Assembly: GCA_009836005.1 (NCBI GenBank)
Contig: VXWG01000053.1
Coordinates: 45,722-109,721 of the forward strand
Length of the DNA stretch: 64,000 nt
Direction of reading: 5' to 3'
From: Candidatus Palauibacter irciniicola
GTDB lineage: Bacteria > Gemmatimonadota > Gemmatimonadetes > Palauibacterales > Palauibacteraceae
Shown here: positions 37,902 through 50,521 of the stretch, piece after piece
Layout of the letters: each line of letters starts with the position of its first letter
Numbering within the stretch: the stretch's first letter is position 1
The notes under the pieces: generated by a model
What the model was told of the DNA's origin: nothing
Seen by the model: only the letters and a program-made list of their open reading frames with translations
Databases searched by the model: none
Translations under genes and position numbers: made by a program

Positions 37902-37953
37902 GAACCCGGGTCAGCCCAATGCACGGACCAATACCATGCCGAAGGAGAGTCTC

Positions 37954-38892
37954 ATGAAGAGTCCGGGCGATACGACACGCCGCGACTTCCTGTCTTGCCT
38001 GGCGGGGGCCGGCGCCGTGCTGGCTGCCCCGCGCGCCCTGTTCGGGAGCACGCCCCCGGTCCAGGAGACGCTTCCCACGCGCCCCATCCCGGGAACGGAG
38101 GAGACGCTGCCCATCGTGGGCTTCGGCTCCTCGAAGCCCGTGCTCGAGATCCCGACCGAAGGGACGGAGCCCGTGGCGAACGTGATCCGCATGCTCCTCG
38201 AGCATGGGGGCCGCGTCGTCGATACCTCGCCGCGCACGCCGGAGATCGACGCGGAGTTCGGCACGGTCCTGACGGCGCCGGAGTTCAGCGGCCGCCTCTT
38301 CGTCGCGACGAAGATCAACACGGACGGGGAAGCCTCGGGCATCGAACAGATGCGGCAGAACCAGCGGCTCGTCGGCAGCCGCACCCTGGACCTGCTCGAG
38401 GTCGAGAGCATGCGCGACCTGGAGGTGCACTGGCCCAACGTGCTCCGCTGGAAGGACTCGGGCGAGGCGCGCTACATCGGCGTCACCACGTCCAGCATCC
38501 CCCAGCACGAGGCGTTCGAGTCGTTCATGCGGACGCAGCCCCTCGACTTCGTGCAGGTCAACTACTCGGTGATGGAACCGAACGCGGAGGATCGTCTCCT
38601 GCCGCTCGCGCAGGATCTCGGGCTCGCCGTCCTCATCAACCGTCCGTTCATGAACGGTACCTACTTCCCCCGCGTGAGCGGACACGAGCTGCCCGAATGG
38701 GCGGCCGAGTTCGACTGCGCGAGCTGGGCGCAGTTCTCCCTCAAGTACATCCTCGCCCATCCCGCCGTGACGTGCGCCCTCACGGAGACGACGAATCCGG
38801 ATCACATGGCGGAGAACATCGGCGCTGCCTTCGGCCGCCTGCCGGACGAGGCCACCAAGCGCCGCATGCGGGAACTGGTTCAGGACTTCTGA
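37954..38892 (+). CDS. Aldo/keto reductase with a Tat signal
   Basis: Tat signal TRRDFLSCLAGAGAVLAAP. AKR fold (LLEHGGRVVDTSP, WKDSGEARYIGVTTSS). A GGAGAG ribosome-binding site sits 5 nt before the ATG at 37954. Confidence 0.7.
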   Translation: MKSPGDTTRRDFLSCLAGAGAVLAAPRALFGSTPPVQETLPTRPIPGTEETLPIVGFGSSKPVLEIPTEGTEPVANVIRMLLEHGGRVVDTSPRTPEIDAEFGTVLTAPEFSGRLFVATKINTDGEASGIEQMRQNQRLVGSRTLDLLEVESMRDLEVHWPNVLRWKDSGEARYIGVTTSSIPQHEAFESFMRTQPLDFVQVNYSVMEPNAEDRLLPLAQDLGLAVLINRPFMNGTYFPRVSGHELPEWAAEFDCASWAQFSLKYILAHPAVTCALTETTNPDHMAENIGAAFGRLPDEATKRRMRELVQDF

Positions 38893-38904: not shown

Positions 38905-39867
38905 TCAGCGGTCGGCCGGGATCTTTCCCCCGCAGAGGACGAGTTCGTCGTCGATCCAGACCGTGGGCGTGCGGTTGACGGCGTCGAAATGGGTTTTGGC
39001 GGAGACGGTGCCGCCGAGGTTGGCGGAGGTGCCGATGCCGATGTGGACGGTGCCGTTCACGCCCTCGTCGTTGAGCATCTCGCCGGTGAACTCGGTGCAG
39101 GCGGGATTCAGGCCGAAGGCGAACTGGGCGAGGTTGTAAACCCAGGGGTCGTCCTGTCTGGCCAGCAGGTCCGCGAGGAAGTCGGCCTGGTCGCCGCCCT
39201 CGATGTCGGTGACGAAGCCCTTCGAGACGCGGAACGTCACGGGTTCGCGGATCGGGCCCACGCCGTAGTACGGGATGCTCCCATCGCACACGAACACGCC
39301 TTCGGCGGTGCCCTGTGCCGGAGCGCAGTTCGCTTCGATGTTGGGGACGGCCGAGAAGCCGGGGCCGTCCAGCAGGCAGGCGTGGCTGTTCCCGGCGACG
39401 CCTTCGAGGCTCATGGTGAGATCGGTGCCGGCGGGGTTCGTCACCCGCAGGCGCTCGCCAGCCGTGAGCTTCGCCGCGATGGCGTCGCACAGCGGCTTGC
39501 GCGCTCGGAAGTCCGTGAACAGCCCGCCCTCGCGCATCATCCGCTCGGTGAACGCGGTCATGGAGAGAACTCGGGCTCCGGCGGCTATGGCCTCGCGGAC
39601 CGCGCGGGTGTGCGCCAGCGCCAGCGTCACGGGCAGGAAGGCGACGTCGGCGGCCGAGAGCGCCGCGGCCACCGCGGGTCCCGGCTCCTCGTTATCGATC
39701 GACCGCTCGGGCGGGACGACGATACTCGCGACGGCGCCGGCCTCTAGCGCAGCGTCGGCGACGGCCCGCGCGATCGCCATCCGCTCCGGATCCGTGACGA
39801 TGACCACGTCCTCAGCGGGCCGCACGTTGGCGCAGGTCCGCACCAGGATCTCCGCGCCTCGTCTCAT
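38905..39867 (-). CDS. M29 (aminopeptidase T/NicX)-like family protein, paralog 2 (tentative family)
   Basis: C-terminal EMLNDEGVNGTVHIGIGTS...KTHFDAV fits the E..E..H / HxD ligand pattern of Peptidase_M29. The ATG at 39867 overlaps the stop of paralog 1 (ATGA). Confidence 0.45.
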   Translation of the reverse strand: MRRGAEILVRTCANVRPAEDVVIVTDPERMAIARAVADAALEAGAVASIVVPPERSIDNEEPGPAVAAALSAADVAFLPVTLALAHTRAVREAIAAGARVLSMTAFTERMMREGGLFTDFRARKPLCDAIAAKLTAGERLRVTNPAGTDLTMSLEGVAGNSHACLLDGPGFSAVPNIEANCAPAQGTAEGVFVCDGSIPYYGVGPIREPVTFRVSKGFVTDIEGGDQADFLADLLARQDDPWVYNLAQFAFGLNPACTEFTGEMLNDEGVNGTVHIGIGTSANLGGTVSAKTHFDAVNRTPTVWIDDELVLCGGKIPADR

Positions 39868-40826
39868 GCCAGAACCTGCTTGGCGCGCTGGACGACGCGC
39901 CCGTCGACGGTGATGGTCGGTTCCCACATCAGCAGGTCGTAGTGGGTCGGGGCCACGATCTCGCCTCCGAGGGTATGGCTCGTTCCGATGCCGATGTGGA
40001 TCGTGCCCATGACGCCCTCGTCCTCGAGCATCTCTCCGGTGAGGCGGGCGTTCGGGTTCAGGCCGACGCCGAGTTCCGCGACGTTGAAGCAGTGCGGATC
40101 CCCGAAGGATTCCAGGTGCTCGCGCAGGAAATCGGCCTGCGGACCGCCGGCCATCTCCACGATGGCGCCTTCGCGCACGGAGCAGACGATGGGCTCCTCC
40201 AGGATGCCGATGCCGAGGTAGGGGACCGAGGCATCGAAGATGAGCGTGCCCTCGGCCGAACCGGTCACCGGCACGACGTTGACCTCGATGTCGGGGACGG
40301 GAGCGAGTTCTCCGGGATCGGGGATGTTGGTCAGCACGTTCGCGACGCGACCTGCGATCCCGAAGCGGAGATCCGTGCCGCGGGGTGAAGTGAGCCGCAC
40401 GGACTCGCCTTCCGTGAACGCCGCGCCGAGGCGGCGGCAGACATCGGCCTGCGCCTCGAAGTCGGTCTCGAGCAGGGCGGGGCTGGTCATGATCGCGTCG
40501 GTGTACGCCGTCATCATGCAGACGCGCGCGCCCGCCTCGAGGGCGGCCCGCATCGCGCGCGTGTGGGTGATCGAGATGCGCACGGGGGAGAAAATCACGG
40601 CGGCCTCGGCCATGGCCCGGGCGACCGGAGGGGGCGGCTCCTGCCCGTCCTGGTCCCGCATGGGAATAATGCACACGGTGACGTCGGCGCCGGCGTCGCG
40701 GGCGGCCGTGGCCACGGCATCCGCGTACCGCCCCATCGTCGGGTCCGCCACGATCACGACGACTTCACCCGGTCGCACCCGTCCGTTCACGTGCACGAGC
40801 CGCCGCGCGCCGGGCGAGAGATCCAT
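39864..40826 (-). CDS. M29 (aminopeptidase T/NicX)-like family protein, paralog 1 (tentative family)
   Basis: Co-linear with paralog 2 (EMLEDEGVMGTIHIGIGTS...PTHYDLL). Start is near MDLSPGARRLVHVNG. Confidence 0.45.
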   Translation of the reverse strand: MDLSPGARRLVHVNGRVRPGEVVVIVADPTMGRYADAVATAARDAGADVTVCIIPMRDQDGQEPPPPVARAMAEAAVIFSPVRISITHTRAMRAALEAGARVCMMTAYTDAIMTSPALLETDFEAQADVCRRLGAAFTEGESVRLTSPRGTDLRFGIAGRVANVLTNIPDPGELAPVPDIEVNVVPVTGSAEGTLIFDASVPYLGIGILEEPIVCSVREGAIVEMAGGPQADFLREHLESFGDPHCFNVAELGVGLNPNARLTGEMLEDEGVMGTIHIGIGTSHTLGGEIVAPTHYDLLMWEPTITVDGRVVQRAKQVLA

Positions 40827-40848
40827 CCCCGCCTCAGCCACGGCCCCG

Positions 40849-42036
40849 TCAGCCACGGTCCCTCGCGAAGAACTCATCGAAGCGGCCGTCGAAGATGATC
40901 GCGGTGTAGCCATCTCCGGTCGTGTTGGTCGCCGTGCGCAGCATGTCGGGGATGCCGCCGGAGAGCGCGATCCAGCTCGCGATGAACTCGCCCTGAGCCT
41001 GACCTTCCAGTCCCAGCATGCTCGCGAACAGCGTCGCGCTCCACAGCGCCGTCCCCATCCCGGCCGGGAGCCCGGGAGCCGCGATCGTGAACAGGACGAC
41101 GGCGGGCCACGCGGCGAGCATCATCATCCAGCTCAATTCCAGGCCGAACACGTAGCTGACGACGAAGGGTCCGTACGCGACGTAGGCCAGCGCGCTCGCG
41201 TCCAGGTTCGCGACGGCGCCGAACGGGAGGACGAAGTCGGCCACCTCGTCGCGGACACCGACCTTCTTCGCGTTCCCGAGGTTGACGGGGAGCGTCGCCA
41301 GCGAGGAACACGTGCCCGCGGCGAAGACCGCGGTGGGCACGTAGTACCCGCTCAGGACGGGCCCCACCGGCCGGCGTCCGACCCTCCGCACGAGCACGAA
41401 CGTGTAGAACGCCCACCAGATGAGGACGAGGGCGCCGGTGTAGGCGGCCATCGTCAGATAGTGGGAGAGCCCCAGGCTCGCGCCGAAGCGCACGCCCAGC
41501 GTGATCCCGAAGGCGAGGATGAGCGGGAGCATGACGTAGGCCAGCTTGCCGCCCGCCTTCTCGATCGAGTCGGCGACTCGTCGAAGTACGCGGTAGGTCG
41601 GATCGTGCCGGGCGCCGAAGGCTCCGAGCAGGACTCCGGCGAGGATCGCGAGCAGCGGCCAGGAGGCCCCGCCGTCGCCGAGGCTCCGCAGCATGGCCGC
41701 GGCTTCGGTCCACACCCCCCGGTCCCCGGTGGTCAGCGGGATGCGAAAGATCGTGGCGGAAGTCACGACGGCGATGAGCCCGGCGACCGTCGACGTGAAG
41801 ACGTACCAGAGGACGACCGCGCCGGCGAAGCGCCCGGCAAGCCCGCGACGAATCAGGGTCGCGATGGCCGGGCTGAGGGCCGCGAGGATCAGCAGCGGCA
41901 CGACGGCGACAACCCAGGCGATAAGCGTGCCCGTGGCGTCGGCCACCGGCGCCAGCGGCACGGGGAGGGACCCGCCGGCGGCCAGGCCCGCCACCAGCGC
42001 CAGCAGGGTCCACACATACGTCGGAACCCTGCGCAT
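40849..42036 (-). CDS. Dicarboxylate/amino acid:cation symporter (DAACS / GltP family)
   Basis: Begins MRRVPTYVWTLLALVAGLAAG with 8 or more TM helices and reentrant loops, including LPVNLGNAKKVG-type segments. ATG at 42036 by codon arithmetic. Confidence 0.75.
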   Translation of the reverse strand: MRRVPTYVWTLLALVAGLAAGGSLPVPLAPVADATGTLIAWVVAVVPLLILAALSPAIATLIRRGLAGRFAGAVVLWYVFTSTVAGLIAVVTSATIFRIPLTTGDRGVWTEAAAMLRSLGDGGASWPLLAILAGVLLGAFGARHDPTYRVLRRVADSIEKAGGKLAYVMLPLILAFGITLGVRFGASLGLSHYLTMAAYTGALVLIWWAFYTFVLVRRVGRRPVGPVLSGYYVPTAVFAAGTCSSLATLPVNLGNAKKVGVRDEVADFVLPFGAVANLDASALAYVAYGPFVVSYVFGLELSWMMMLAAWPAVVLFTIAAPGLPAGMGTALWSATLFASMLGLEGQAQGEFIASWIALSGGIPDMLRTATNTTGDGYTAIIFDGRFDEFFARDRG

Positions 42037-42199
42037 GACCCCCGGCGTCACTCCTCGGCGTGTCGGTGAACTCGGGCGCGCAACGTCTCGAAGCAGGGCG
42101 AGATGTTGATGGTGTTCATGGCGGAAGCGTAGTGTCTTCAGGAAAATGAAGGCAACGCCAAGCGCAGTCTGTATTGCCCCGCTAAGCCCGGAGGGCCCA

Positions 42200-43468
42200 A
42201 TGGATCGCCCGTCATCACCGCTCCCGCGCCGCCGCTTTCTCCACCTGACCGGTGCCGCCCTGGGCCTCGCCGCGACCTCCGGCTGCGCAACCGCCGGGAG
42301 GACGCGCAGTACGGGGGCCGGCCTGCTGTCTGCCGGTGCAGCCACGGACCGCACCTGGACTCCCGATCGCTTCGATCCGTGGATCGAACTCGACCGCGCC
42401 GCCTGGGCCCACAACGTCCGCGAGGCCGCGCGGCTGGCGGGCGGCCGCCCCATCCTCGCGGTCGTGAAGAACAACGCCTACGGCCTGGGGGATCGTGCGG
42501 TCGGGCCGCTCCTCGCCGGGATGCCCGAGGTGGGCGGCATCGCCGCCGTGCGCGCCGAGGAGGCGCTCGCCATGCGGGAGGCGGGCGTGACCAAGCCGAT
42601 CGTGGTCATGGCCGAGGGATCCGAGGCCGAGATCGAGGAGCTGGCGAGGCGCGACGTGCTCCCGTCCGTGTGGCTGGACGATGCGCCCGCGCGGCTGCGG
42701 AGCGTGTCCAGGCGACTCGGCCGTCCCGTGCCCGTCCAGCTCTTCATCGATACGGGGATGAACCGGGAGGGGATGCCGTACACCCGCGCCCGCGGCTGGA
42801 TCGAGGAGCTGGTGCAGAGCGAATACGTCGACGTGAACGGCACCTACACCATGTTCATTCACGATCTCGACTTCAATCGGGAGCAGCTCGCGCGCTTCGA
42901 GGAACTCCTCGCCTGGGCCCGCGGGAAGAACCTTCCCCTCGGCACCCTCCACGCTTCACCCTCCTTCGAGCTGTTCAACTTGCCCGAGGCGCACTACGAC
43001 ATGGTGCGTCCCGGGAACGCACTGTTCGGGAACCACCTTTCCGGCGGCGAGGGCGCCCGGGAGATGGCCGACCTCAGGCCCGTGTTTCGCATGAACGCGC
43101 GCGTGGTGCGGGTCGAACGCCTGGAGCCGGGCGACGGCGCGGGCTTCCGTCACACCTTCACCGCCGACCGGGCGACCTGGGTCGCACTGCTGCCGGTCGG
43201 CCGCACCGACGGCTATCCGTCCGAAGCAAACGGGACCTGCGAGGTGCTGATCAACGGCCGTCTGTATCCGGTCGCCGGAGGCGTCAACTCCGCGCACACG
43301 ATTCTCGACATCGGTCCGGAGAAGACGGTCGAGGTCGGCGATGTCGCGACCCTCATCGGCCCCGACCATCCATCCGTGCTTCCCCACACCGTCGCCGAGC
43401 GGACGGGCCGCGGCTTCCTCGGCATCATCCAGTCCATGAATCCGCGGCTCCCGAGACGGGTGGTGTAA
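42200..43468 (+). CDS. Alanine-racemase-family PLP enzyme with a Tat-lipoprotein signal (periplasmic racemase, BsrV-like)
   Basis: Tat plus lipobox PRRRFLHLTGAALGLAATSGC. PLP-Lys motif AVVKNNAYGLG and a C-terminal beta domain. A GGAGGG ribosome-binding site precedes the ATG at 42200. Confidence 0.75.
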   Translation: MDRPSSPLPRRRFLHLTGAALGLAATSGCATAGRTRSTGAGLLSAGAATDRTWTPDRFDPWIELDRAAWAHNVREAARLAGGRPILAVVKNNAYGLGDRAVGPLLAGMPEVGGIAAVRAEEALAMREAGVTKPIVVMAEGSEAEIEELARRDVLPSVWLDDAPARLRSVSRRLGRPVPVQLFIDTGMNREGMPYTRARGWIEELVQSEYVDVNGTYTMFIHDLDFNREQLARFEELLAWARGKNLPLGTLHASPSFELFNLPEAHYDMVRPGNALFGNHLSGGEGAREMADLRPVFRMNARVVRVERLEPGDGAGFRHTFTADRATWVALLPVGRTDGYPSEANGTCEVLINGRLYPVAGGVNSAHTILDIGPEKTVEVGDVATLIGPDHPSVLPHTVAERTGRGFLGIIQSMNPRLPRRVV

Positions 43469-43477
43469 GGCCCCTCC

Positions 43478-44770
43478 CTATCGGCAGCGCTCCACGATGG
43501 CCGCGATCGCGGTGTCGATCTCGTCGCGGGTGTTGAAGAAGTGGATGGATAGCCGGAAGTCGCGCTCCTCCCGGACGGGAGAGGCGAGGATCTCTTCGTC
43601 TTCGCGCAAGTCGCTGTAGAGCTGCGTGGCGTCGCACCCCTCCGGGAGTTGCACGACGAACACGCCCGAGCGGTCCGGGCGCGCCCGCGGAGACGACACG
43701 TCCAGCCCTTCCGTGCGGTCGACAATCTCGATCGCGTGGTCGACGAGCGACTGAATCCGGCCCTCGATCCTCTCCAGGCCGACATCCTCCATCCACGCCA
43801 CCGCGCGGGCGAAGCCGGCGAAGTCCGCCAGCGCTCGAGTGCCGAACTCGTACCTCGCGGCGCTGGGGAGCAGGGTGTAGGCACCCTCGTAGTCCATCGT
43901 CGCGTGGCTGTGGGAACCGGCCCAGCTGAGCTGCACGTCGTCCAGCATTTCGTGACGCACGAAGAGCGCGCCGGTGCCCTTTGGGCCGAGCAGCCACTTG
44001 TGGCCGCAGGTCGAATAGCCGTCGCAGCCGAGCGCGCGGAAGTCGGTCGCGACGCAGCCGGGGCCCTGTGCGCCGTCGAGGTGGTAGCGCACGCCGCGGG
44101 AGCGCAGCAGGTCGCCCAGTTCGGCGGACTCGTCGGTCCGCAGCGTCCGCCCGTTGTTCCGCGACACGTGACTGATACTCACCATCCGCGTGCGGTCGGA
44201 GAGTTGGCCGCGAACCTCGTCGATGAGTCCGGTGCCGGGGCTCAGGTCGATCTCGCGGATCGCGATCCCGAACCGGTCCCGCAGGACGTACCACGGGACG
44301 ACGTTGGCGGGGTGTTCCGTGTTGGAGATCACGACCTCGTCGCCCGGCTCCCAGTTCAGGCTCCAGGCGAGGATGGAGATCCCCTCGGAGGTGCTGTGCG
44401 TGAGCGCGACTTCCTCCGTCTCGGCCCCGAATACGCGCCCCAACTGCGCCCGCAGGTCGGGCTCGATCCGCGCCATCTCGTCCGAGATGCGGGGCTCGGC
44501 CGGACTCCGGTTCTGGAAGGCGAGCCGTTCATGGACGTGGTCGATGACGGCGTTCGGAGCGGGGCCGATCCCGCCCGTCTGGAAATAAAGGCTCTCCGTC
44601 GAGGCGGGGATCTCGGCGCGCGCGCGGGCCACCCAGGCTTCCTGCGGGCGACTCGAATCAGCGGGCCGGGAAGCCGGATCGGCCAGGGCGAGCCGCCCGA
44701 CGGGCACGATCGGGGCCAGCGCCAGCGCGCTCGCGGACCGGCGGAGGAAGTGGCGTCGACTCGTGTTCAT
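43478..44770 (-). CDS. Class V aminotransferase-fold PLP enzyme (cysteine desulfurase / isopenicillin-N-epimerase-like) with a Tat signal
   Basis: Tat signal SRRHFLRRSASALALAP. PLP-Lys motif STCGHKWLLGPKGTGALFV. ATG at 44770 by codon arithmetic; it overlaps the APC permease stop. Confidence 0.7.
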   Translation of the reverse strand: MNTSRRHFLRRSASALALAPIVPVGRLALADPASRPADSSRPQEAWVARARAEIPASTESLYFQTGGIGPAPNAVIDHVHERLAFQNRSPAEPRISDEMARIEPDLRAQLGRVFGAETEEVALTHSTSEGISILAWSLNWEPGDEVVISNTEHPANVVPWYVLRDRFGIAIREIDLSPGTGLIDEVRGQLSDRTRMVSISHVSRNNGRTLRTDESAELGDLLRSRGVRYHLDGAQGPGCVATDFRALGCDGYSTCGHKWLLGPKGTGALFVRHEMLDDVQLSWAGSHSHATMDYEGAYTLLPSAARYEFGTRALADFAGFARAVAWMEDVGLERIEGRIQSLVDHAIEIVDRTEGLDVSSPRARPDRSGVFVVQLPEGCDATQLYSDLREDEEILASPVREERDFRLSIHFFNTRDEIDTAIAAIVERCR

Positions 44771-46227
44771 TCCGGCTCCTCGTCGCTGAGGATGAGCCAG
44801 CGGAGCCTCCTGTCGCTCACCTCGCGGCGGAGGGGCGCGGCGGCGCGGTAGAAGACGAGCCCCAGCGCCGCCCAGACGACGAGGACGATCCACTCGGCGG
44901 GGATCCGGCCGCCCGCGCCATGGAAGGGTTCCCAGATCGAAGCTCCGAGCAGCCCCAGCGCGATGACGGCACTGAGAACCAGGAAGCCCCGGCCGCCGGG
45001 CACGGTGTAGGGACGTGGATGGTCGGGGCGCGTCTTCCGCAGCCGCAGGACGCCCAGCACGACGACGAGGAAGACGATCATGGCCGAGATCGCGGCGCCT
45101 CCGACGATGACGAGGATGGCGTTGCGGCCGAACAGCGCCCCGACGCTCCCCATGACGGCCACGAAGATGACCGCGGCGGACGGCGAGCCGTAGCGGTCGT
45201 GCACCCTGGCGAGGCGGTGGGGGATCATGTGCGCGCGAGCCATGGCGAAGACGATCCGCGTGGAGGCGAAGAAGATCGCGTTCCACGTCGTGATGAGTCC
45301 GCAGAGTCCGGCGAACAGCACGATCCGGCCCAGGAACGGCGAGCCGAGCGCGGCCTCGATCGCCGCCGCGGCCGGAAGCTCGGAGGCGAGCAGTTCCGCG
45401 CGGGGCATGCTCATGGCCGTCGCCAGAATCACGAGACAGTAGAAGACGAGCGCGAACAGGATCGAGGCACCCATGACGCGGGGCAGGAGCCGCAGCTTCG
45501 CGCCCTCCTCCACCTCCTCCATCGCCTGGGGAATCGTGTCGAAGCCGGCGAACCAGAACGCGGCGGTCCCGAGCACGATGCCCACGCCGACGAGGGCCGC
45601 CCCCGGCGTCGTCCCGCTGAACATGGGCTCCAGGTTCGCGACGCTGCCGCCCACGACCCCCGCGACGACGAAGATGAGGGTGAGGATGATGAGTCCGGCC
45701 GTCATCAGGTCCTGGAACCAGGCGGCCGTCTTTCCGCCGCGGTAGTTGATGAACGTGATCGCGGCCATCACGGCGAGTCCGAGGGCGAGGCTCCACAGCC
45801 GCACCTCCTGCCCCAGCAGCGTGTAGATGACCGGACCGCCGAACCCCGGGACGAGAGCCGACACGACCCATTCCACGGAGATCGCCTCGAAGGAGGTCGT
45901 GAAGATGTAGGAGAAGGCGAGGAACCACGCGGCGGCGAAACTCCAGCGCGCTCCCCACGCCTCGAACACGTACGCGACCTCGCCGCCGGTGACCGGGTAC
46001 GCGGCCGCCATCTCCGAGTAGCAGAGCCCGATCGCGAGAATGCCGAGGCCGCCGAGCACGAACGCGATGATGGCCCCGACCGCGCCGGCGCCGCTCAGCC
46101 ACGCCCCCATGACCGTGATCCAGCCGACGCCGATGATGGTGCCGAAGGCGAGCGAGAAGAGCGACCGGAGCCGGATCCCTCGCCCGAGTTCCTCGCGCCC
46201 GCCCTTTGCCCCCGGCTGGCCCGACAC
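44767..46227 (-). CDS. APC-family amino acid permease
   Basis: 12 TM helices with an N-terminal LFSLAFGTIIGVGW APC signature. A GTG start near 46227 overlaps the kce stop. Confidence 0.8.
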   Translation of the reverse strand: MSGQPGAKGGREELGRGIRLRSLFSLAFGTIIGVGWITVMGAWLSGAGAVGAIIAFVLGGLGILAIGLCYSEMAAAYPVTGGEVAYVFEAWGARWSFAAAWFLAFSYIFTTSFEAISVEWVVSALVPGFGGPVIYTLLGQEVRLWSLALGLAVMAAITFINYRGGKTAAWFQDLMTAGLIILTLIFVVAGVVGGSVANLEPMFSGTTPGAALVGVGIVLGTAAFWFAGFDTIPQAMEEVEEGAKLRLLPRVMGASILFALVFYCLVILATAMSMPRAELLASELPAAAAIEAALGSPFLGRIVLFAGLCGLITTWNAIFFASTRIVFAMARAHMIPHRLARVHDRYGSPSAAVIFVAVMGSVGALFGRNAILVIVGGAAISAMIVFLVVVLGVLRLRKTRPDHPRPYTVPGGRGFLVLSAVIALGLLGASIWEPFHGAGGRIPAEWIVLVVWAALGLVFYRAAAPLRREVSDRRLRWLILSDEEPE

Positions 46228-47186
46228 TAGCTGTACCGTGTCGGCGTGGCCGAGAGCCCGAGCATTTCGCGCGCCTGCGCGGGCGTGGCGACCTCGCGGT
46301 TCAGTTCGTGCGCGATCCGGACGGCGCGCTCCACGAGCTGGCGGTTGCTCGCCACCTTCTGGCCGCGACGGTAGTAGATGTTGTCCTCGAGGCCGACGCG
46401 GACATGGCCTCCCATGAGGGTGGCGAGCGTGGTCATGGGAAGCTGGTGCGGCCCGATGCCGGAGCACAGCCAGACGGAACCCTCCGGGAACTCCCGGACC
46501 ATGTTCACGACGTTGTCGACGGTCGGCCAGCTCGACGTCTGGTAGCCCATCACGGTCTGGACCCAGTAGGGCGCCTCGATGAGGCCCTGCGCCATCAGGT
46601 CCCGGATCACCCACCCGCAGCCGGGGTGGTAGGTCTCGAGTTCGGGCTTGATGCCGCGCGCCTTCATCTCCGCCGCGAAGTGCGCGATCTGCCTGTAGGA
46701 GAACGGCGTGCAGTCGTCGAAGTCGATCGCGGGGCGCGGGTGCGTGTACTCCTCTCCCCGCGGCTTCAGTTTGAACTTGCCCATGTCCGGGGCGAGGTTC
46801 AGCGACGCGACCTCGGGGTTGGCGTCGAGGCAGGACAGGCGCTGTTCATCGTCCATCCACAGGTCGCCGCCGGTCGTGTTGTTGATGATGATCTCGGGGC
46901 AGCGCTCGCGCAGGCGGCGGTTCGCCTCCAGCCACACCTCCGTCGTCGTCGCCCCCTTCCACAGCGTCTCGGGGTTGCGGGCGTGGATGTGCACCATCGA
47001 GGCGCCCGCGTCGTATGCCTCGCCGACGGATTCGGCGAGTTCCTCGGACGTCTCCGGGAGGGCCTCGTTATACTCCTTGCCCTGGATGCCGCCGTTCGCG
47101 GCCAGGCAGATGATGACGGGGGGCATGCCGCCGGCGACCCTGTCCATGTAGGCGTAGGGGTCGCCGTAGTTCCAGGTCGTGGTCAT
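46227..47186 (-). CDS. Beta-keto acid cleavage enzyme (BKACE/DUF849; 3-keto-5-aminohexanoate cleavage enzyme Kce-like)
   Basis: Starts MTTTWNYGDPYAYMDRVAGGMPPVIICLAANGG. TIM-barrel BKACE signatures HIHARNPE and GLEDNIYY. Confidence 0.75.
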   Translation of the reverse strand: MTTTWNYGDPYAYMDRVAGGMPPVIICLAANGGIQGKEYNEALPETSEELAESVGEAYDAGASMVHIHARNPETLWKGATTTEVWLEANRRLRERCPEIIINNTTGGDLWMDDEQRLSCLDANPEVASLNLAPDMGKFKLKPRGEEYTHPRPAIDFDDCTPFSYRQIAHFAAEMKARGIKPELETYHPGCGWVIRDLMAQGLIEAPYWVQTVMGYQTSSWPTVDNVVNMVREFPEGSVWLCSGIGPHQLPMTTLATLMGGHVRVGLEDNIYYRRGQKVASNRQLVERAVRIAHELNREVATPAQAREMLGLSATPTRYS

Positions 47187-47278
47187 GTGCTCCTCGGCGG
47201 GCTGTTGTCGTCTCGGGAGGCTGTTCTCGTTTCGTCTGGGACGCTCGGCCATCTCACACCGATTCACAAGAGGATGCC

Positions 47279-48175
47279 ATGTCCGGTACGGAACGCGTCG
47301 CAGGGATCGTAGCCATCATCGGCGCGGGAACGATGGGGCGACGGATCGCCTACGGCTGTGCGGTGCGGGGGGTGCCCGCGCGGCTGCACGATATCTCGGA
47401 GGAGGCGCTCGCCGGAGCGATCGAAGACGTGCGCGCGCTGCTCGAGGCCGCGGACGACGGGCACGGGGCCGGCGCGACACATGGCGTCGTGGAGGCGTGC
47501 GGGGATCTCGAGGACTGCGTGCGGGAGGCGGACTGGGTCATCGAGACGGTCCACGAAGACCTCGAACTGAAACGCGTCGTCCTCGGGCGAATCGGCGCGG
47601 CGGCGCCGCCGGAGGCGTTCATCGCCTCCAACACCTCCTCGCTGCCGGGTTCGTGGATGGCGGAGTCGACGGGCCGTCCCGGGCGGTTCACGAACATGAA
47701 CTTCGGCCCGCCGGAGGACCTCAAGGTCGAGGTCATGGGGCACCCCGGTACCGACCCCGCGACGGTCGATGCGGCGAAGCGGTTCCTGCGCGGGCTCGGC
47801 CTCGTGCCGATCGTCGCCCGTCGCGAGATCCAGGGCTATCCGACGAACCGGATCTGGCGCGCCATCAAGAAGGAGTCGCTGCACCTGGTCGCCGGCGGAT
47901 ACCTGAGCGCCGAAGAGATCGACCGGGCGTGGATGCTCGACTGGGGCACGCCGATTGGGCCGTGCGGACTCATGGATGTGGTCGGACTCGACGTCGTGCG
48001 TGACATCGAGAACGTGTACTACGAGGCCTCCGGTGACCCGTCCGACAAGCCGCCCGGCTTCCTCGACCGGATGGTCGAGCGCGGGGAACTGGGCGTGAAG
48101 TCGGGGAAGGGGTTCTACACCTACCCGTCGCCCGCCTTCGAGCGGGACGGTTGGCTCACGGCCTCCGACGACTGA
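47279..48175 (+). CDS. 3-hydroxyacyl-CoA dehydrogenase family protein (L-carnitine / 3-hydroxybutyryl-CoA dehydrogenase-like)
   Basis: Rossmann motif IIGAGTMGRRIA, NTSSL, and a C-terminal 3HCDH_C domain. Confidence 0.8.
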   Translation: MSGTERVAGIVAIIGAGTMGRRIAYGCAVRGVPARLHDISEEALAGAIEDVRALLEAADDGHGAGATHGVVEACGDLEDCVREADWVIETVHEDLELKRVVLGRIGAAAPPEAFIASNTSSLPGSWMAESTGRPGRFTNMNFGPPEDLKVEVMGHPGTDPATVDAAKRFLRGLGLVPIVARREIQGYPTNRIWRAIKKESLHLVAGGYLSAEEIDRAWMLDWGTPIGPCGLMDVVGLDVVRDIENVYYEASGDPSDKPPGFLDRMVERGELGVKSGKGFYTYPSPAFERDGWLTASDD

Positions 48176-48178
48176 CGC

Positions 48179-48616
48179 CTACCAGGTCACGACGCCGTCG
48201 CGGCCGACCCGCAGTTCGTCGCCGGTCTCGACCCGGTCGAGCAGTTCGGGCCCCAGCCGATCCACGCACACGATCGCCGTGTCGAGCCAGACATCGGCCA
48301 GGATCAGGCCGCCGGCCGTGAGCGGATCCACCTCCCCGGGCAGGAGGAGTCCGGCGGGGGCGAGACCGAGTTCCGCGATGCGCTCCCAGCAGGGCCCGGC
48401 GGACGTCGAGCCCACGCAGAAGGGCGCGAGGACGATCCGTCCGGTGAGCGGTTCGCCGAAGAGTTCGGTGTTCTGCGGATCCCCGCACACGGCCGCGTCG
48501 ATCCCTCCGTCGAACTGGTCGCAGAAGCTCGCGAAGGGGTTGAACCCGACCCGGGATACGGCGGCGGGCGCCGCGACCTCCCCGCCGATGACCGCCCGGC
48601 CCTGGAGGCGGGGCAT
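48179..48616 (-). CDS. Aconitase X swivel-domain small subunit (DUF126)
   Basis: Roughly 145 aa. Adjacent to and overlapping the DUF521 gene (its start overlaps the large-subunit stop). Confidence 0.55.
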   Translation of the reverse strand: MPRLQGRAVIGGEVAAPAAVSRVGFNPFASFCDQFDGGIDAAVCGDPQNTELFGEPLTGRIVLAPFCVGSTSAGPCWERIAELGLAPAGLLLPGEVDPLTAGGLILADVWLDTAIVCVDRLGPELLDRVETGDELRVGRDGVVTW

Positions 48617-49974
48617 CAGGCGTGACTCCCGGAGGAGGTCCCCGAGGGGCCCGTCGTGGAGGCCGCGGCGGCACCCTCCGTGCCGCCTGTCACCATCACC
48701 CGGAGGAGTGCCTCATCGTCGAGCATGTACACGTTGCGACTGTAGTAGCGAAGCTTGTTCGAATTCGTGACGACGCAGGCGGGCGCGAGGATCGGGTCCT
48801 GCATGAACGCCTCCAGGCAGAAGGACCCCACGTGTCCTCCCGCGACGGCGAGGGTCGCGAAGCCCGGATGTTCGGCGCGGAAGCGGGACACCACGTCGGG
48901 GGCCGCGACGAAGACCGTCTCCACCGCGAGGCGGTCGCGTCCGGCGCGCGCGAGTTCGCCCTCCACCGCATCGGTCCACGCGCACAACTGGTCGTAGGTG
49001 AGGTGTGGGCAGCCGAGCAGGACCTTGTTCGGCCGCAGTTCCTCGACCGGGCGGTCGGCGCGCAGCGACGCTCCGACCGACTCGATCTGTCCCTCGTCGA
49101 TCGTCAGCCGGCGAGCGTCGTCGCGGATGAGCCGCCGGCCGTACCGCTTCGCCTCCACGGTGACGCCTTCCACGTGGAAGAGGCCGACCCCGCCCCCCAC
49201 GGAAGCGTTCGTCCCGAAGTCGCGCAGGAACTTCCCGCTGGCCGGGTGTTCGCCACCTTCGAGCATGTCCGCGAGGCCCGTCAACCAGGGGATCCCGGCT
49301 CCGACTTCCCGCCCGACGATGTAGCCGAGCACCTGGCCGTTGATCGGCCCCGCCGCCTCGACCTCGACGAGCCAGCTCGCGCGCCGCCCCTCGTCCGTCA
49401 GCAGACCGGCGAGCGGCGTCTTGCCGACGACGTTGGAGATGAGATCGAGGATCCCGGGATTCCGGTGCGTGCGCGCGCCGATGACGGAGTTCGCGTACAC
49501 CACCGCGGAGGATTCCGCCCACGCCACGATCTGGCCGTACGAGGGCCGGTTCGCGACCTCCTCGAACCACGGCGTGCAGGTCAGGCCGCCCGCGTCGCGC
49601 AGGCCCAGCTTCGTGAGCGCCTCCCGGTAGCGCACCTCGGTTGGGTAGGCGCGGGCGAGCCGCTTCCGCTGGTCGTCTGTCAGATCCGACAGCGTCTCGT
49701 TGAGGATCGTGGCCGGGTCGGCCGTGAAGGGAAGCGCGGCCCGGACCCCGGCGTCGACGAGCGACTCGAGAAACTCCGTCCGCGCCCCGACCCCGGGCTT
49801 GGACTCCGGAATCACGAGGTGCCCCGGACCCTCCACCGGCACGAGCCGCTCCGCATCCATCGCCTCGCCGAAGCGGACCATGGTGAGGAGGAGCTTCCGG
49901 GGGATCTCCCCTCGGCTCCCGTCGAGGACCTCTCGCTCGTCTCGGGTCAGATCCATCGTACCGTCGGCTGTCAC
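48616..49974 (-). CDS. Aconitase X catalytic large subunit (DUF521; cis-3-hydroxy-L-proline dehydratase-like)
   Basis: Roughly 450 aa with a Cys-containing AcnX-like core. The pair with the DUF126 gene is diagnostic of type II AcnX. Confidence 0.65.
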   Translation of the reverse strand: MTADGTMDLTRDEREVLDGSRGEIPRKLLLTMVRFGEAMDAERLVPVEGPGHLVIPESKPGVGARTEFLESLVDAGVRAALPFTADPATILNETLSDLTDDQRKRLARAYPTEVRYREALTKLGLRDAGGLTCTPWFEEVANRPSYGQIVAWAESSAVVYANSVIGARTHRNPGILDLISNVVGKTPLAGLLTDEGRRASWLVEVEAAGPINGQVLGYIVGREVGAGIPWLTGLADMLEGGEHPASGKFLRDFGTNASVGGGVGLFHVEGVTVEAKRYGRRLIRDDARRLTIDEGQIESVGASLRADRPVEELRPNKVLLGCPHLTYDQLCAWTDAVEGELARAGRDRLAVETVFVAAPDVVSRFRAEHPGFATLAVAGGHVGSFCLEAFMQDPILAPACVVTNSNKLRYYSRNVYMLDDEALLRVMVTGGTEGAAAASTTGPSGTSSGSHA

Positions 49975-50125: not shown

Positions 50126-50521
50126 TTGCCAGGAGGGGGTGAAGCCTTGAGGGATCCGACATTCAGCGACCGGGAGCTGGACATCATGAGTGTCCTGTGG
50201 CGCCGCGGGTCCGGCTCCGTGAGCGAGGTCATGGAGGCGCTCGAGGACGAGGTCGGCTATACGACCGTTCTCAAGTTCCTTCAGATCCTCGAAAAGAAAG
50301 GTGCCGTCCGGCACGAGGCGGAGGGCCGCGCGTATCGGTACTTCCCGCTCGTCGCCTCCGAAACGGCGGGGGAGACGGCCCTGGCCCGGATCCGGGACAA
50401 GATCTTCGGCGGGTCGGCGGAACTCGTCCTCGCCCAACTCATCTCGGGCCGGGAGGTGTCGCCGGAGGAACTGGAGCGCATGCGGCGGATCCTCGATGAA
50501 CTGGAGGAGGGCGAGCCATGA
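50126..50521 (+). CDS. BlaI/MecI/CopY-family transcriptional repressor
   Basis: Winged-helix pattern DIMSVLWRRGSGSVSEVMEAL...YTTVLKFLQILEKKGAV. Start is probably a non-ATG codon. Confidence 0.7.
   Translation: MPGGGEALRDPTFSDRELDIMSVLWRRGSGSVSEVMEALEDEVGYTTVLKFLQILEKKGAVRHEAEGRAYRYFPLVASETAGETALARIRDKIFGGSAELVLAQLISGREVSPEELERMRRILDELEEGEP

What the first reader, a model, noticed from the sequence alone, without database searches (positions are those of the whole stretch)
42146..47267. Two Tat-exported PLP enzymes (racemase-like and class-V epimerase/desulfurase-like) embedded with permeases and a BKACE gene
- **Racemase:** the alanine-racemase-fold protein carries a twin-arginine signal plus lipobox, so it should act in the periplasm, like the broad-spectrum racemase BsrV that makes non-canonical D-amino acids.
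- **Class-V PLP enzyme:** convergent and 10 bp away is a second PLP enzyme of the class-V fold. That family includes isopenicillin-N epimerase and cysteine desulfurases. It also has a Tat signal.
- **Unusual operon:** the class-V enzyme is the last gene of a tightly overlapping operon kce(BKACE) - APC permease - Tat-PLP enzyme. Mixing cytoplasmic, membrane and exported components this way is unusual. Periplasmic PLP chemistry paired with a dedicated permease suggests an extracytoplasmic amino-acid modification or salvage route.
Basis: partly seen in the sequence, partly recalled or inferred. Interest (0 to 1): 0.6.

Follow-up and report, generated by a model that had tools for sequence, protein, structure and literature searches.

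The report
Two exported PLP enzymes, one miscalled racemase
A sponge-associated Gemmatimonadota bacterium encodes two neighbouring vitamin-B6 enzymes that carry conserved export signals, but they are not a conserved pair, and the one annotated "alanine racemase" lacks a catalytic residue that every canonical racemase compared here has.

Summary
An alanine-racemase-fold gene (42200-43468, +) carries a twin-arginine motif and a lipobox. It converges, 9 bp apart, on a class-V PLP gene (43478-44770, -) with a Tat signal. That gene is the last of a BKACE / APC permease / class-V run with overlapping stop and start codons.

- **Not a conserved pair:** the adjacency exists only in the genus Ca. Palauibacter. 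Elsewhere each gene sits in other contexts. Tat-like N-termini occur on about 8 of 49 genes in this window, so adjacency alone says little.
- **Class-V enzyme:** it is not a cysteine desulfurase, because the persulfide cysteine is replaced by leucine. Tat-exported PLP enzymes already have precedents in PvdN and PtaA.
- **"Racemase":** it belongs to a large, uncharacterised, Tat-signal-bearing branch of the alanine-racemase fold. Its subclade has an invariant Phe where the second catalytic base, Tyr265', should be (110 of 110 homologs). His166, Met312'/Asp313' and Tyr354 are also replaced. A BsrV-like two-base racemase is therefore doubtful.

Both substrates remain unknown. I rate this a new variant of a known kind, of moderate interest.

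The parts
42200..43468 (+). Alanine-racemase-fold PLP protein, 422 aa, predicted Tat-exported lipoprotein. The PLP Lys is K90. F316 stands in place of the catalytic Tyr.
   Evidence: - Pfam PF01168 + PF00842.
- Homologs are 420-422 aa and start MDRP.
- AF2 pLDDT 84.4, with a full Alr fold: TM 0.75-0.78 to Mtb Alr, BsrV and VanTG.
- Active-site substitutions.
42200..42286 (+). Signal region of the Alr-like protein: the twin-arginine motif (PRRRFLHL), a hydrophobic stretch and the lipobox ATSGC (Cys29).
   Evidence: - RR motif plus lipobox Cys in 108 of 120 homologs.
- The AF2 model shows a helix at residues 10-26, then a disordered stretch at 27-58 that could act as a tether.
- No hit to TIGR01409 or PF10518.
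43478..44770 (-). Class-V (SufS-fold) PLP enzyme, 430 aa, with a Tat signal. The PLP Lys is K258 (CGHKW). Arg406 aligns with a SufS Arg that I take, from memory, to be the alpha-carboxylate-binding Arg379. Leu395 stands in place of the SufS persulfide Cys.
   Evidence: - Pfam PF00266.
- TIGR01409 passed for residues 3-30.
- Alignment to SufS shows HHCAQP aligned with EILASP.
- Family invariants.
- Foldseek top hits are SufS, TM about 0.70.
44767..46227 (-). APC-family amino-acid permease. Its stop overlaps the class-V start (ATGA), and its GTG start overlaps the BKACE stop (TAGTG).
   Evidence: - Pfam PF13520 and PF00324.
- Junction sequences.
46227..47186 (-). BKACE (beta-keto acid cleavage enzyme) family protein, 319 aa, the first gene of the three-gene run.
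   Evidence: - PF05853 at 276.6 bits.
- The best NCBIfam model is Kce at 231 bits against a cut-off of 382, so it is not an equivalog.
- Start ATG 47186 with GAGGAG upstream.
47279..48175 (+). 3-hydroxyacyl-CoA-dehydrogenase-family oxidoreductase, divergent from BKACE. Probably the partner dehydrogenase that supplies the beta-keto acid.
   Evidence: - PF02737 + PF00725.
- Conserved next to BKACE in the Palauibacter loci.
38905..42051 (-). SDF-family symporter (40849 to about 42051) followed by two NicX/M29-like paralogs (39864-40856 and 38905-39867). In other Longimicrobiales this unit lies directly downstream of the class-V gene on the same strand.
   Evidence: - Pfam.
- L001 annotation PF26233 NicX.
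- Arrangement class-V > SDF > NicX in L017-L029, L072, L075 and L076.

Best explanation
The region encodes two separately conserved, Tat-exported PLP enzymes of sponge- and coral-associated Gemmatimonadota (Ca. Palauibacter). They are neighbours through a genus-specific rearrangement and are not an obligate pair.

**1. The Alr-fold protein**
- *Inferred location:* it is exported already folded, with PLP bound, and is lipid-anchored on the periplasmic side through Cys29 and a roughly 30-residue flexible tether.
- *Shown:* it belongs to a large uncharacterised branch of alanine-racemase-fold proteins that carry Tat signals and have lost the His166 and Met-Asp active-site residues.
- *Shown:* its subclade has also replaced the second catalytic base Tyr265' by Phe and the specificity residue Tyr354 by Leu.
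- *Inferred:* it is most likely not a canonical two-base racemase. It is more likely a Lys-only PLP enzyme acting on an extracytoplasmic amino acid. Candidate reactions are D-specific elimination, retro-aldol cleavage or transamination, or at best an atypical racemisation.

**2. The class-V enzyme**
- *Shown:* it has a SufS-like fold. It keeps the PLP lysine and an Arg (R406) that aligns with a SufS Arg I take, from memory, to be the alpha-carboxylate-binding one. It lacks the persulfide cysteine.
- *Inferred:* it acts in the periplasm on a free alpha-amino acid as a lyase, decarboxylase or epimerase-type enzyme, in the manner of PvdN or C-DES.
- *Inferred:* its product or remaining substrate is taken up by the transporter encoded beside it. 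In Palauibacter that is the APC permease, and cytoplasmic BKACE and HCDH chemistry follows.

Neither substrate is known.
For: **Export**
- TIGR01409 is passed by the class-V N-terminus.
- The RR motif is conserved across homologs of 69-95% identity from two phyla.
- RR plus lipobox is present in 108 of 120 Alr-like homologs.
- The AF2 models leave residues 1-40 (class-V) and 27-58 (Alr-like) disordered, as expected for a signal and linker.
- Precedents for Tat export of PLP enzymes: PvdN and PtaA (PMC6206403).

**Not a desulfurase**
- SufS HHCAQP aligns with EILASP, and L395/A396/S397/P398 are invariant or nearly so.
- All desulfurase NCBIfam models score far below their cut-offs.

**Not a canonical racemase**
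- Gap-free alignments to VanTG, Mtb Alr and 4bhy place F316 on the catalytic Tyr.
- F316 is invariant in 110 of 110 homologs, and no neighbouring Tyr is conserved.
- M218, S364, A365 and L407 (in place of His166, Met312', Asp313' and Tyr354) are invariant. R335, in place of Tyr284', is R in 95 and H in 14 of 110.
- An NJ tree separates cytoplasmic H-Y-MD-Y racemases from the Tat-bearing clades.

**Not a pair**
- The class-V gene has four different neighbourhood types, and the racemase-like gene is adjacent only in Palauibacter.
- Alr-like homologs at 68-83% identity sit in unrelated contexts.
- Tat-like N-termini are common in the window.

**Coupling to uptake**
- A transporter or membrane-protein gene flanks the class-V gene on the same strand in all four types: APC, SDF, NCS2 permease, or an unnamed polytopic protein.
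Against: - No signal-peptide predictor (SignalP or TatP) was available. The Alr-like N-terminus did not hit TIGR01409 or PF10518.
- The class-V hydrophobic region (LALAPVVPVGRLA) is unusually conserved for a cleaved signal. It could be an uncleaved anchor.
- The Alr-like protein exceeds the curated TIGR00492 "alr" cut-off (179.5 against 168). Another residue, for example the invariant His366, could act as the second base, so racemase activity is not excluded.
- The class-V AF2 model is only of medium quality (pLDDT 69.9).
- The transporter next to the class-V gene belongs to a different family in each lineage. That weakens any substrate-specific enzyme-transporter pairing.
- Whether Palauibacter genomes hold a separate canonical alr could not be checked.
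Confidence: 0.6

Rival explanations
1. A BsrV-like periplasmic broad-spectrum racemase and a periplasmic class-V epimerase or lyase form one extracytoplasmic amino-acid modification or salvage route. The route is served by the adjacent permeases and by BKACE.
For: - Both genes are adjacent and exported.
- The arrangement is conserved in 14 Palauibacter loci.
- A periplasmic broad-spectrum racemase that feeds a catabolic route exists in P. putida (PMC6034422).
Against: - The catalytic Tyr is absent from the "racemase".
- The adjacency is limited to one genus. In sister lineages the class-V gene is followed directly by SDF-NicX, and the racemase-like gene lies elsewhere.
- The two genes are convergent, so they are not co-transcribed.
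- Tat proteins are frequent in this window.
Confidence: 0.15
2. The Alr-like protein is still a genuine exported racemase, broad-spectrum or specialised. It uses a different second base, such as the invariant His366 or a water network, in place of Tyr265'.
For: - The full Alr fold is kept, with the PLP Lys, Tyr43, Arg136 and Arg219 equivalents.
- It passes the TIGR00492 cut-off.
- An invariant His366 appears where canonical enzymes have Met or Gln next to the Met-Asp motif. A His at this position is shared by most of the Tat clade (my reading of the sequences).
Against: - Tyr265' is the acid/base for the L-isomer in the accepted mechanism (PMC4542195).
- Tyr was present in every cytoplasmic Alr compared here.
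- Its hydrogen-bond partner His166 is lost at the same time. That looks like dismantling of the second-base site rather than drift.
Confidence: 0.25
3. In Palauibacter the class-V enzyme is an integral step of the BKACE / HCDH / GBBH-like catabolic island. The island would degrade a carnitine-, gamma-butyrobetaine- or beta-hydroxy-amino-acid-type sponge metabolite. The class-V enzyme would trim or convert the substrate in the periplasm before APC-mediated uptake.
For: - Overlapping stop and start codons link BKACE, APC and class-V.
- HCDH lies next to the run, and a GBBH-like TauD dioxygenase lies about 8.5 kb beyond it, on the far side of the racemase-like gene.
- The organisation is conserved across Palauibacter.
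Against: - In three Palauibacter loci (L013, L015, L070) a small extra gene, one of them antitoxin-like, sits between APC and class-V.
- Outside the genus the class-V gene never accompanies BKACE, HCDH or APC.
- BKACE and HCDH do not reach any equivalog cut-off, including those for carnitine dehydrogenase and Kce.
Confidence: 0.25
4. The N-terminal RR motifs are not export signals, and both enzymes are cytoplasmic.
For: - No dedicated predictor was run.
- The Alr-like N-terminus has no TIGR01409 or PF10518 hit.
Against: - The RR motif, a hydrophobic stretch and (for one protein) the lipobox Cys are conserved, while the surrounding residues vary.
- TIGR01409 is passed by the class-V protein.
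- In the NJ tree the cytoplasmic-type Alr sequences lack these extensions.
Confidence: 0.05

Closest known systems
PvdN (and PtaA) of fluorescent pseudomonads: Tat-exported periplasmic PLP enzymes
   Same: - PvdN is a class-V-fold PLP enzyme with a twin-arginine signal. It is exported folded, with PLP bound, and acts on an amino-acid moiety in the periplasm (PMC6206403).
- The window protein aligns with the PvdN model over its full length, signal included: residues 2-423 against 4-422 of 425.
- PDB 5i90 aligns from residue 4.
   Different: - Only 88.7 bits against the PvdN cut-off of 650.
- No pyoverdine genes nearby.
- It is closer in sequence to SufS and C-DES (121 and 112 bits) than to PvdN (80 bits).
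- The substrate is unknown.
SufS / CsdA group-II cysteine desulfurases and the cystine lyase C-DES
   Same: - Best sequence and structure matches: 6wci at 121 bits, Foldseek TM about 0.70.
- The PLP Lys, the His stacking residue, the DGAQ motif and an Arg (R406) aligning with a conserved SufS Arg are kept.
- The GHKW motif is shared with C-DES.
   Different: - The persulfide Cys is replaced by Leu.
- It carries a Tat signal.
- No SufE, SufU or SufBCD genes are among the annotated neighbours.
- Model scores are far below the cut-offs.
BsrV / Bar / P. putida Alr: periplasmic broad-spectrum racemases
   Same: - The two-domain Alr fold, TM about 0.75 to BsrV.
- An extracytoplasmic location.
- The P. 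putida enzyme works in the periplasm in a catabolic role (PMC6034422).
   Different: - From memory, BsrV and its relatives use ordinary signal peptides; the papers read here do not state the route. This protein has a Tat motif plus a lipobox.
- The catalytic Tyr is Phe. His166, the Met-Asp motif and Tyr354 are replaced.
- NF009879 scores 116 against a cut-off of 434.
- It is no closer to Bsr than to Alr or VanT.
Cytoplasmic alanine racemase (Alr/DadX) and VanT serine racemase
   Same: - Pfam architecture.
- TIGR00492 cut-off passed.
- VanTG is the best PDB hit at 135 bits.
- Like VanT, it lacks Tyr354 (PMC4542195).
   Different: - It is exported and lipid-anchored.
- It lacks the Tyr265' base, which Alr, VanT and all 21 cytoplasmic-type (H-Y-MD-Y signature) sequences compared here keep.

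Membership tests
Alanine racemase (Alr, TIGR00492 equivalog) | PF01168 + PF00842 architecture, and a score above the TIGR00492 cut-off | tested here: met
   PF01168 at 146 bits and PF00842 at 79 bits. TIGR00492 scores 179.5 against a cut-off of 168.
Alanine racemase (Alr, TIGR00492 equivalog) | PLP-binding catalytic Lys (BsAlr Lys39) | tested here: met
   K90 in AVVKNNAYG, invariant in 110 of 110 homologs.
Alanine racemase (Alr, TIGR00492 equivalog) | Second catalytic base Tyr265' (motif G-x-x-V-G-Y) | tested here: not met
   F316 (GDGAGF) aligns gap-free with the catalytic Tyr of VanTG, Mtb Alr, 4bhy and E. coli Alr. It is invariant Phe in 110 of 110 homologs, and position +1 is variable.
Alanine racemase (Alr, TIGR00492 equivalog) | His166, Met312'-Asp313' and Tyr354 active-site residues | tested here: not met
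   M218, S364-A365 and L407 stand in their place, all invariant in the clade. One MAFFT run aligned the nearby H221 to His166 instead.
Broad-spectrum racemase (BsrV/Bar family) | Extracytoplasmic targeting signal | tested here: met
   A conserved RR motif plus lipobox. This is a Tat/lipoprotein type; from memory, the Bsr enzymes use ordinary signal peptides.
Broad-spectrum racemase (BsrV/Bar family) | Score at family level (NF009879 PRK13340-type model) and the two-base Lys/Tyr site | tested here: not met
   116.3 bits against a cut-off of 434. The Tyr is replaced by Phe.
Broad-spectrum racemase (BsrV/Bar family) | The published Bsr residue fingerprint (Espaillat et al. 2014), and multi-substrate racemase activity | not testable with these tools
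   The paper that defines the fingerprint is not held. Activity needs an enzyme assay.
Cysteine desulfurase (SufS/CsdA/IscS) | Class-V fold with the PLP Lys | tested here: met
   PF00266 at 168 bits. K258 is invariant. Foldseek TM is about 0.70 to SufS.
Cysteine desulfurase (SufS/CsdA/IscS) | Active-site persulfide-forming Cys (SufS HHC motif) | tested here: not met
   It aligns with L395 in EILASP. L395, S397 and P398 are invariant and A396 nearly so.
Cysteine desulfurase (SufS/CsdA/IscS) | Family model cut-off, and sulfur-acceptor partner genes nearby | tested here: not met
   TIGR01979 scores 151.7 against 475, and NF006791 scores 121 against 661. The neighbours are permease, BKACE and racemase-like genes. 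In Acidobacteriota an IscA-like gene lies two genes upstream. I noted that but did not interpret it.
PvdN (NF051467) | Tat signal on a class-V PLP enzyme | tested here: met
   TIGR01409 scores 18.3 against 16.7. The alignment to the PvdN model includes the N-terminus.
PvdN (NF051467) | Equivalog score, and a pyoverdine gene context | tested here: not met
   88.7 bits against a cut-off of 650. No pyoverdine genes in the neighbourhood.
Tat-dependent lipoprotein | S/T-R-R-x-F-L motif, a hydrophobic stretch, and a lipobox with an invariant Cys | tested here: met
   PRRRFLHL...LAATSGC. R10, R11 and C29 are invariant in the alignment of 34 sequences, and 108 of 120 homologs have both features. There is no predictor or experimental confirmation.
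BKACE (PF05853) / Kce equivalog | Pfam domain; equivalog cut-off for 3-keto-5-aminohexanoate cleavage enzyme | tested here: inconclusive
   The PF05853 domain is met at 276.6 bits. NF052387 scores 231 against a cut-off of 382, which is not met. It is a BKACE-family member of unknown substrate.

The most novel reading that the evidence does not exclude
A widespread clade of Tat-exported, lipid-anchored alanine-racemase-fold proteins, found in Gemmatimonadota and relatives, has lost the Tyr265' base and the His166 and Met-Asp residues. It has evolved a new periplasmic PLP reaction, for example a D-amino-acid-specific lyase, aldolase or transaminase. Thousands of database entries annotated "alanine racemase" would then be misannotated. 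Together with the cysteine-less Tat class-V family next door, this would point to a much larger repertoire of periplasmic PLP chemistry than the PvdN, PtaA and Bsr examples known today.
Probability: 0.35. Interest if true: 0.65.

Novelty: new variant of a known kind. Interest (0 to 1): 0.45.

Why it matters
- **Few characterised examples.** I know of only a handful of characterised periplasmic PLP enzymes: the Bsr racemases, PvdN and PtaA. PLP has to be carried out with the folded protein, as shown for PvdN (PMC6206403).
- **Two new families.** Two further well-conserved families with Tat signals occur in uncultured sponge and coral symbionts. That suggests extracytoplasmic amino-acid chemistry is more common than assumed.
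- **Misleading annotation.** The invariant Tyr-to-Phe change gives a concrete, testable reason to distrust the "alanine racemase" label on this clade. A one-base Alr fold may carry out a different reaction.
- **Symbiont biology.** The genes sit among transporters, peptidase-like genes and a BKACE/HCDH/GBBH-like island. That fits scavenging of host-derived nitrogenous compounds.

Tried and rejected
- **SufS ortholog:** rejected. The Cys is Leu, model scores are below their cut-offs, and there are no Suf partners.
- **PvdN ortholog:** rejected on score and context.
- **BsrV-family member:** rejected on the catalytic Tyr and the model score.
- **A Tyr shifted by one residue (GFY in many homologs) as the real base:** rejected. 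Position 317 is N, Y, S, R or K, and in the window it is R.
- **Conserved two-enzyme module:** rejected by the neighbourhood survey of 80 genome loci and by six contig look-ups on close homologs.
- **Fingerprint residues of the Bsr family:** the defining paper is not held, so this was left untested.
- **Neighbourhoods of the more distant Tat-Alr relatives P0243 and P0245:** the contigs are too short to be informative.
- **Homologs of the Acidobacteriota or type-C partner genes (c3, c8, c23, c19, c39, c5) in the window:** none found.
- **A second, canonical alr in the window:** none found. The whole genome could not be searched.
- **Fold searches:** they added nothing beyond confirming the SufS-like and Alr-like folds.
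- **Literature search for Tat-dependent racemases:** nothing relevant turned up.

Full report
**What is in the sequence**

The window is about 70% G+C. I called genes from a third-position GC frame plot and checked them with Pfam. Around the finding the order is as follows.

| Coordinates | Strand | Gene |
|---|---|---|
| 36786-37901 | + | GBBH-like/TauD dioxygenase |
| 37936-38892 | + | aldo-keto reductase with its own Tat-like N-terminus |
| 38905-39867 and 39864-40856 | - | two NicX/M29-like paralogs |
| 40849 to about 42051 | - | SDF-family symporter |
| 42200-43468 | + | Alr-fold gene |
| 43478-44770 | - | class-V PLP gene |
| 44767-46227 | - | APC permease |
| 46227-47186 | - | BKACE |
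| 47279-48175 | + | 3-hydroxyacyl-CoA-dehydrogenase-family gene |
| 48179-49974 | - | AcnX small and large subunits |

The same order, with Pfam labels, is found in Ca. Palauibacter soopunensis (GCA_028874535.1). Its Alr-like protein is 97% identical to the window's. The organism is therefore a Palauibacter-type Gemmatimonadota, a group abundant in sponges and marine sediments (PMC10469786).

**Checking the observation**

- The Alr-like gene most likely starts at ATG 42200. It has a GGAGG upstream, and its homologs are 420-422 aa and all begin MDRP.
- BKACE most likely starts at ATG 47186.
- The two PLP genes converge with 9 nt between their stop codons.
- BKACE and APC overlap by one base (TAGTG). 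APC and class-V overlap by four (ATGA).

The class-V N-terminus, MNTSRRHFLRRSASALALAPIVPVGRLALA-DP, passes the curated TIGR01409 Tat-signal model at 18.3 bits against a cut-off of 16.7. The RR motif is kept in every full-length homolog I sampled, down to 69% identity, in Gemmatimonadota and Acidobacteriota.

The Alr-like N-terminus, MDRPSSPLPRRRFLHLTGAALGLAATSGC, did not hit the short Tat models. However, an RRxFL motif followed by a lipobox cysteine is present in 108 of 120 homologs, and the exceptions sampled are N-terminally truncated gene calls or fragments. R10, R11 and C29 are invariant while the residues between them vary.

The AlphaFold models agree with this. The Alr-like protein has an N-terminal helix (residues 10-26), a disordered stretch at 27-58, and then a confident two-domain fold (pLDDT 84.4). 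The class-V protein is disordered over residues 1-40.

What is not remarkable is the adjacency itself. A simple motif-plus-hydrophobicity scan finds Tat-like N-termini on 7 genes, and the class-V gene, which that filter missed, brings the total to about 8 of 49 coding ORFs in this window. Three of them have a lipobox. One adjacent pair is about what chance predicts.

**The class-V enzyme**

- Its best sequence and fold matches are group-II cysteine desulfurases: 6wci at 121 bits, and Foldseek TM of about 0.70 to E. coli SufS. C-DES (112 bits) and PvdN (80 bits) follow.
- It keeps the PLP lysine (K258, CGHKW), the His that stacks on PLP (TEHPAN) and DGAQ. It also keeps an Arg (R406, FRLSIHFFNT) that aligns with a conserved SufS Arg, which I take, from memory, to be the alpha-carboxylate-binding residue.
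- The SufS persulfide cysteine (HHCAQP) aligns with Leu in an invariant ILASP. Every desulfurase model scores far below its cut-off.
- It is therefore not a desulfurase.
- The PvdN model aligns over the whole length including the signal, but at 88.7 bits against a cut-off of 650.
- PvdN and PtaA show that Tat export of folded, PLP-loaded enzymes is an established mechanism (PMC6206403). The principle is not new. This family and its substrate are.

**The racemase-like protein**

- It has the full Alr fold, with TM of 0.75-0.78 to Mtb Alr, BsrV and VanTG. It even passes the TIGR00492 "alr" cut-off (179.5 against 168), which explains its database name.
- In gap-free alignments to VanTG (GESVGY), Mtb Alr (GEGVSY) and another Alr (GEPVGY), the catalytic Tyr aligns with Phe in GDGAGF. 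Alignment with E. coli Alr gives the same result.
- F316 is invariant in 110 of 110 full-length homologs of 63-97% identity. The next position is variable (N, Y, S, R or K), so no shifted Tyr is conserved.
- Other substitutions are conserved too: His166 to Met218, Tyr284' to Arg or His, Met312'-Asp313' to Ser364-Ala365, Ile222 to Asn273, and Tyr354 to Leu407.
- In the accepted mechanism, Lys and Tyr265' are the two acid/base catalysts, and Tyr354 restricts the substrate to alanine (PMC4542195).
- A search of 1.8 billion cluster representatives gave 9,921 relatives at E <= 1e-10. Among the closest full-length ones, cytoplasmic sequences have the H-Y-MD-Y signature. The nearest relatives of the window protein form Tat-signal-bearing clades that lack His166 and the Met-Asp motif.
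- Most of those relatives keep the Tyr. The window clade, its sister P0243, and P0250 have Phe. Two others have Cys or Ala.
- The window protein is thus a derived member of an uncharacterised exported branch of the Alr fold. A BsrV-like two-base racemase is doubtful. The Bsr-type model also fails, at 116 bits against a cut-off of 434.
- From memory, a Tyr265-to-Ala mutant of the Geobacillus enzyme loses racemase activity and gains D-specific retro-aldolase activity (Seebeck and Hilvert 2003). That shows what a Lys-only Alr scaffold can do. It is a lead, not evidence.

**Are the genes a functional unit?**

A scan of one genome per species found 80 loci encoding relatives of the class-V protein. 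Nearly all came from sponge, coral or marine MAGs. I searched the flanks with the window's proteins and clustered all flanking ORFs. Four contexts emerged.

| Type | Lineage and identity | Gene order around the class-V gene |
|---|---|---|
| A | Palauibacter, 14 loci | HCDH< BKACE> APC> classV> Alr-like< SDF> NicX> NicX> |
| B | other Longimicrobiales, 81-87% | classV> SDF> NicX>, sometimes with a toxin-antitoxin or AAA-ATPase gene inserted |
| C | Longimicrobiales, 76-80% | NCS2 permease> classV> S15 X-Pro dipeptidyl-peptidase> |
| D | Acidobacteriota, 66-74% | unnamed polytopic membrane protein> classV> zinc-ribbon membrane protein> (an IscA-like gene lies two genes upstream) |

- In type A the Alr-like gene lies, in the opposite orientation, between the class-V gene and the SDF-NicX unit that follows it directly in type B. 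The arrangement looks like an insertion.
- Alr-like homologs at 68-83% identity sit in unrelated neighbourhoods: next to an S15 peptidase, an FmdA/AmdA amidase, a glyoxalase-like gene or others.
- In three Palauibacter loci a small extra gene separates APC from class-V. One of these genes looks like an antitoxin.
- The pairing of the two PLP enzymes, and the BKACE-APC-class-V operon, are therefore genus-level features.
- What does recur is a transporter or membrane-protein gene flanking the class-V gene on the same strand, from a different family each time. This fits a generic "convert in the periplasm, then import" logic. It does not identify a substrate.

**Most likely mechanism**

Shown:
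- folds, cofactor-binding residues, the missing catalytic residues, conserved export motifs, codon overlaps and neighbourhood patterns.

Inferred:
- Both proteins bind PLP in the cytoplasm and cross the membrane folded via Tat.
- The Alr-like protein is then lipidated at Cys29 and hangs from the membrane on a tether of about 30 residues.
- The Alr-like protein performs Lys-only PLP chemistry on an extracytoplasmic amino acid.
- The class-V enzyme performs lyase-, decarboxylase- or epimerase-type chemistry on a free alpha-amino acid, and a neighbouring transporter takes up the product.
- In Palauibacter, BKACE and the divergent HCDH-family dehydrogenase then handle a beta-hydroxy or beta-keto acid in the cytoplasm. 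The GBBH-like dioxygenase nearby hints at a carnitine- or gamma-butyrobetaine-like compound. None of these proteins reaches an equivalog cut-off.

**Verdict**

The features are real. It is wrong, or at least unsupported, on the BsrV analogy, the joint route and the unusual operon. Relative to known systems this is a new variant of a known kind, Tat-exported PLP enzymes. Its most interesting element is an exported Alr-fold clade that has lost the second catalytic base while still being annotated as alanine racemase. Interest is moderate, at 0.45.

Noticed in passing
window 37936-38892 (+): An aldo-keto reductase (PF00248) has its own Tat-like N-terminus (TTRRDFLSCLAGAGAVLA). It scores below both cut-offs: PF10518 16.7 against 22.7, and TIGR01409 14.3 against 16.7. 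This would be a third candidate exported enzyme in the same cluster.
   Followed up: partly
window 36786-37901 (+), 46227-47186 (-), 47279-48175 (+): A GBBH-like/TauD dioxygenase, a BKACE and an HCDH-family dehydrogenase lie together. The combination recalls hydroxylation, oxidation and beta-keto cleavage of gamma-butyrobetaine or carnitine. None of the three reaches an equivalog cut-off.
   Followed up: partly
window 38905-42051 (-); loci L017-L029, L072, L075, L076: An SDF symporter plus NicX/M29-like protein(s) follows the class-V gene on the same strand in non-Palauibacter Longimicrobiales. That unit looks like the older partner of the class-V gene. Its function is unknown, and no NCBIfam model matches the NicX-like proteins.
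   Followed up: partly
window near 12319 (-), 16761 (+), 32949 (-), 52193 (+), 54228 (+): Five further Tat-like N-termini occur in the window. Those at 16761 and 32949 have lipobox-like cysteines, which suggests that Tat-dependent lipoproteins are common in this lineage. I did not identify the proteins.
   Followed up: no
window 48179-49974 (-): Separate AcnX small (swivel) and large subunit genes overlap by 1 nt. The best named relative is cis-3-hydroxy-L-proline dehydratase, at 138 bits against a cut-off of 700.
   Followed up: no
window 50126-52041 (+): A BlaI/BlaR-like pair (Penicillinase_R repressor and Peptidase_M56 sensor) sits next to the catabolic cluster, followed by a tannase/feruloyl-esterase-family gene at 52184-53713. 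These labels come from the L001 annotation.
   Followed up: no
loci L007, L010-L012, L015-L029, L070 (flanks of the class-V gene): Toxin-antitoxin-like genes (PIN/VapBC-like and ParDE-like by my reading of the sequences; no family search was run on them) and an ATPase-like gene are repeatedly inserted between cluster genes in related MAGs. This indicates frequent local rearrangement.
   Followed up: partly
protein P0244 (763 aa): A relative from the representative library consists of two tandem Alr-like domains in one polypeptide. It was not examined further.
   Followed up: no
loci L003, L004, L044-L069 (Acidobacteriota): In these loci the class-V gene lies two genes downstream of an IscA/HesB-like Fe-S assembly gene. 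It is also flanked by an unnamed polytopic membrane protein and a zinc-ribbon membrane protein, both conserved across about 20-25 loci. The meaning is unexplained.
   Followed up: partly
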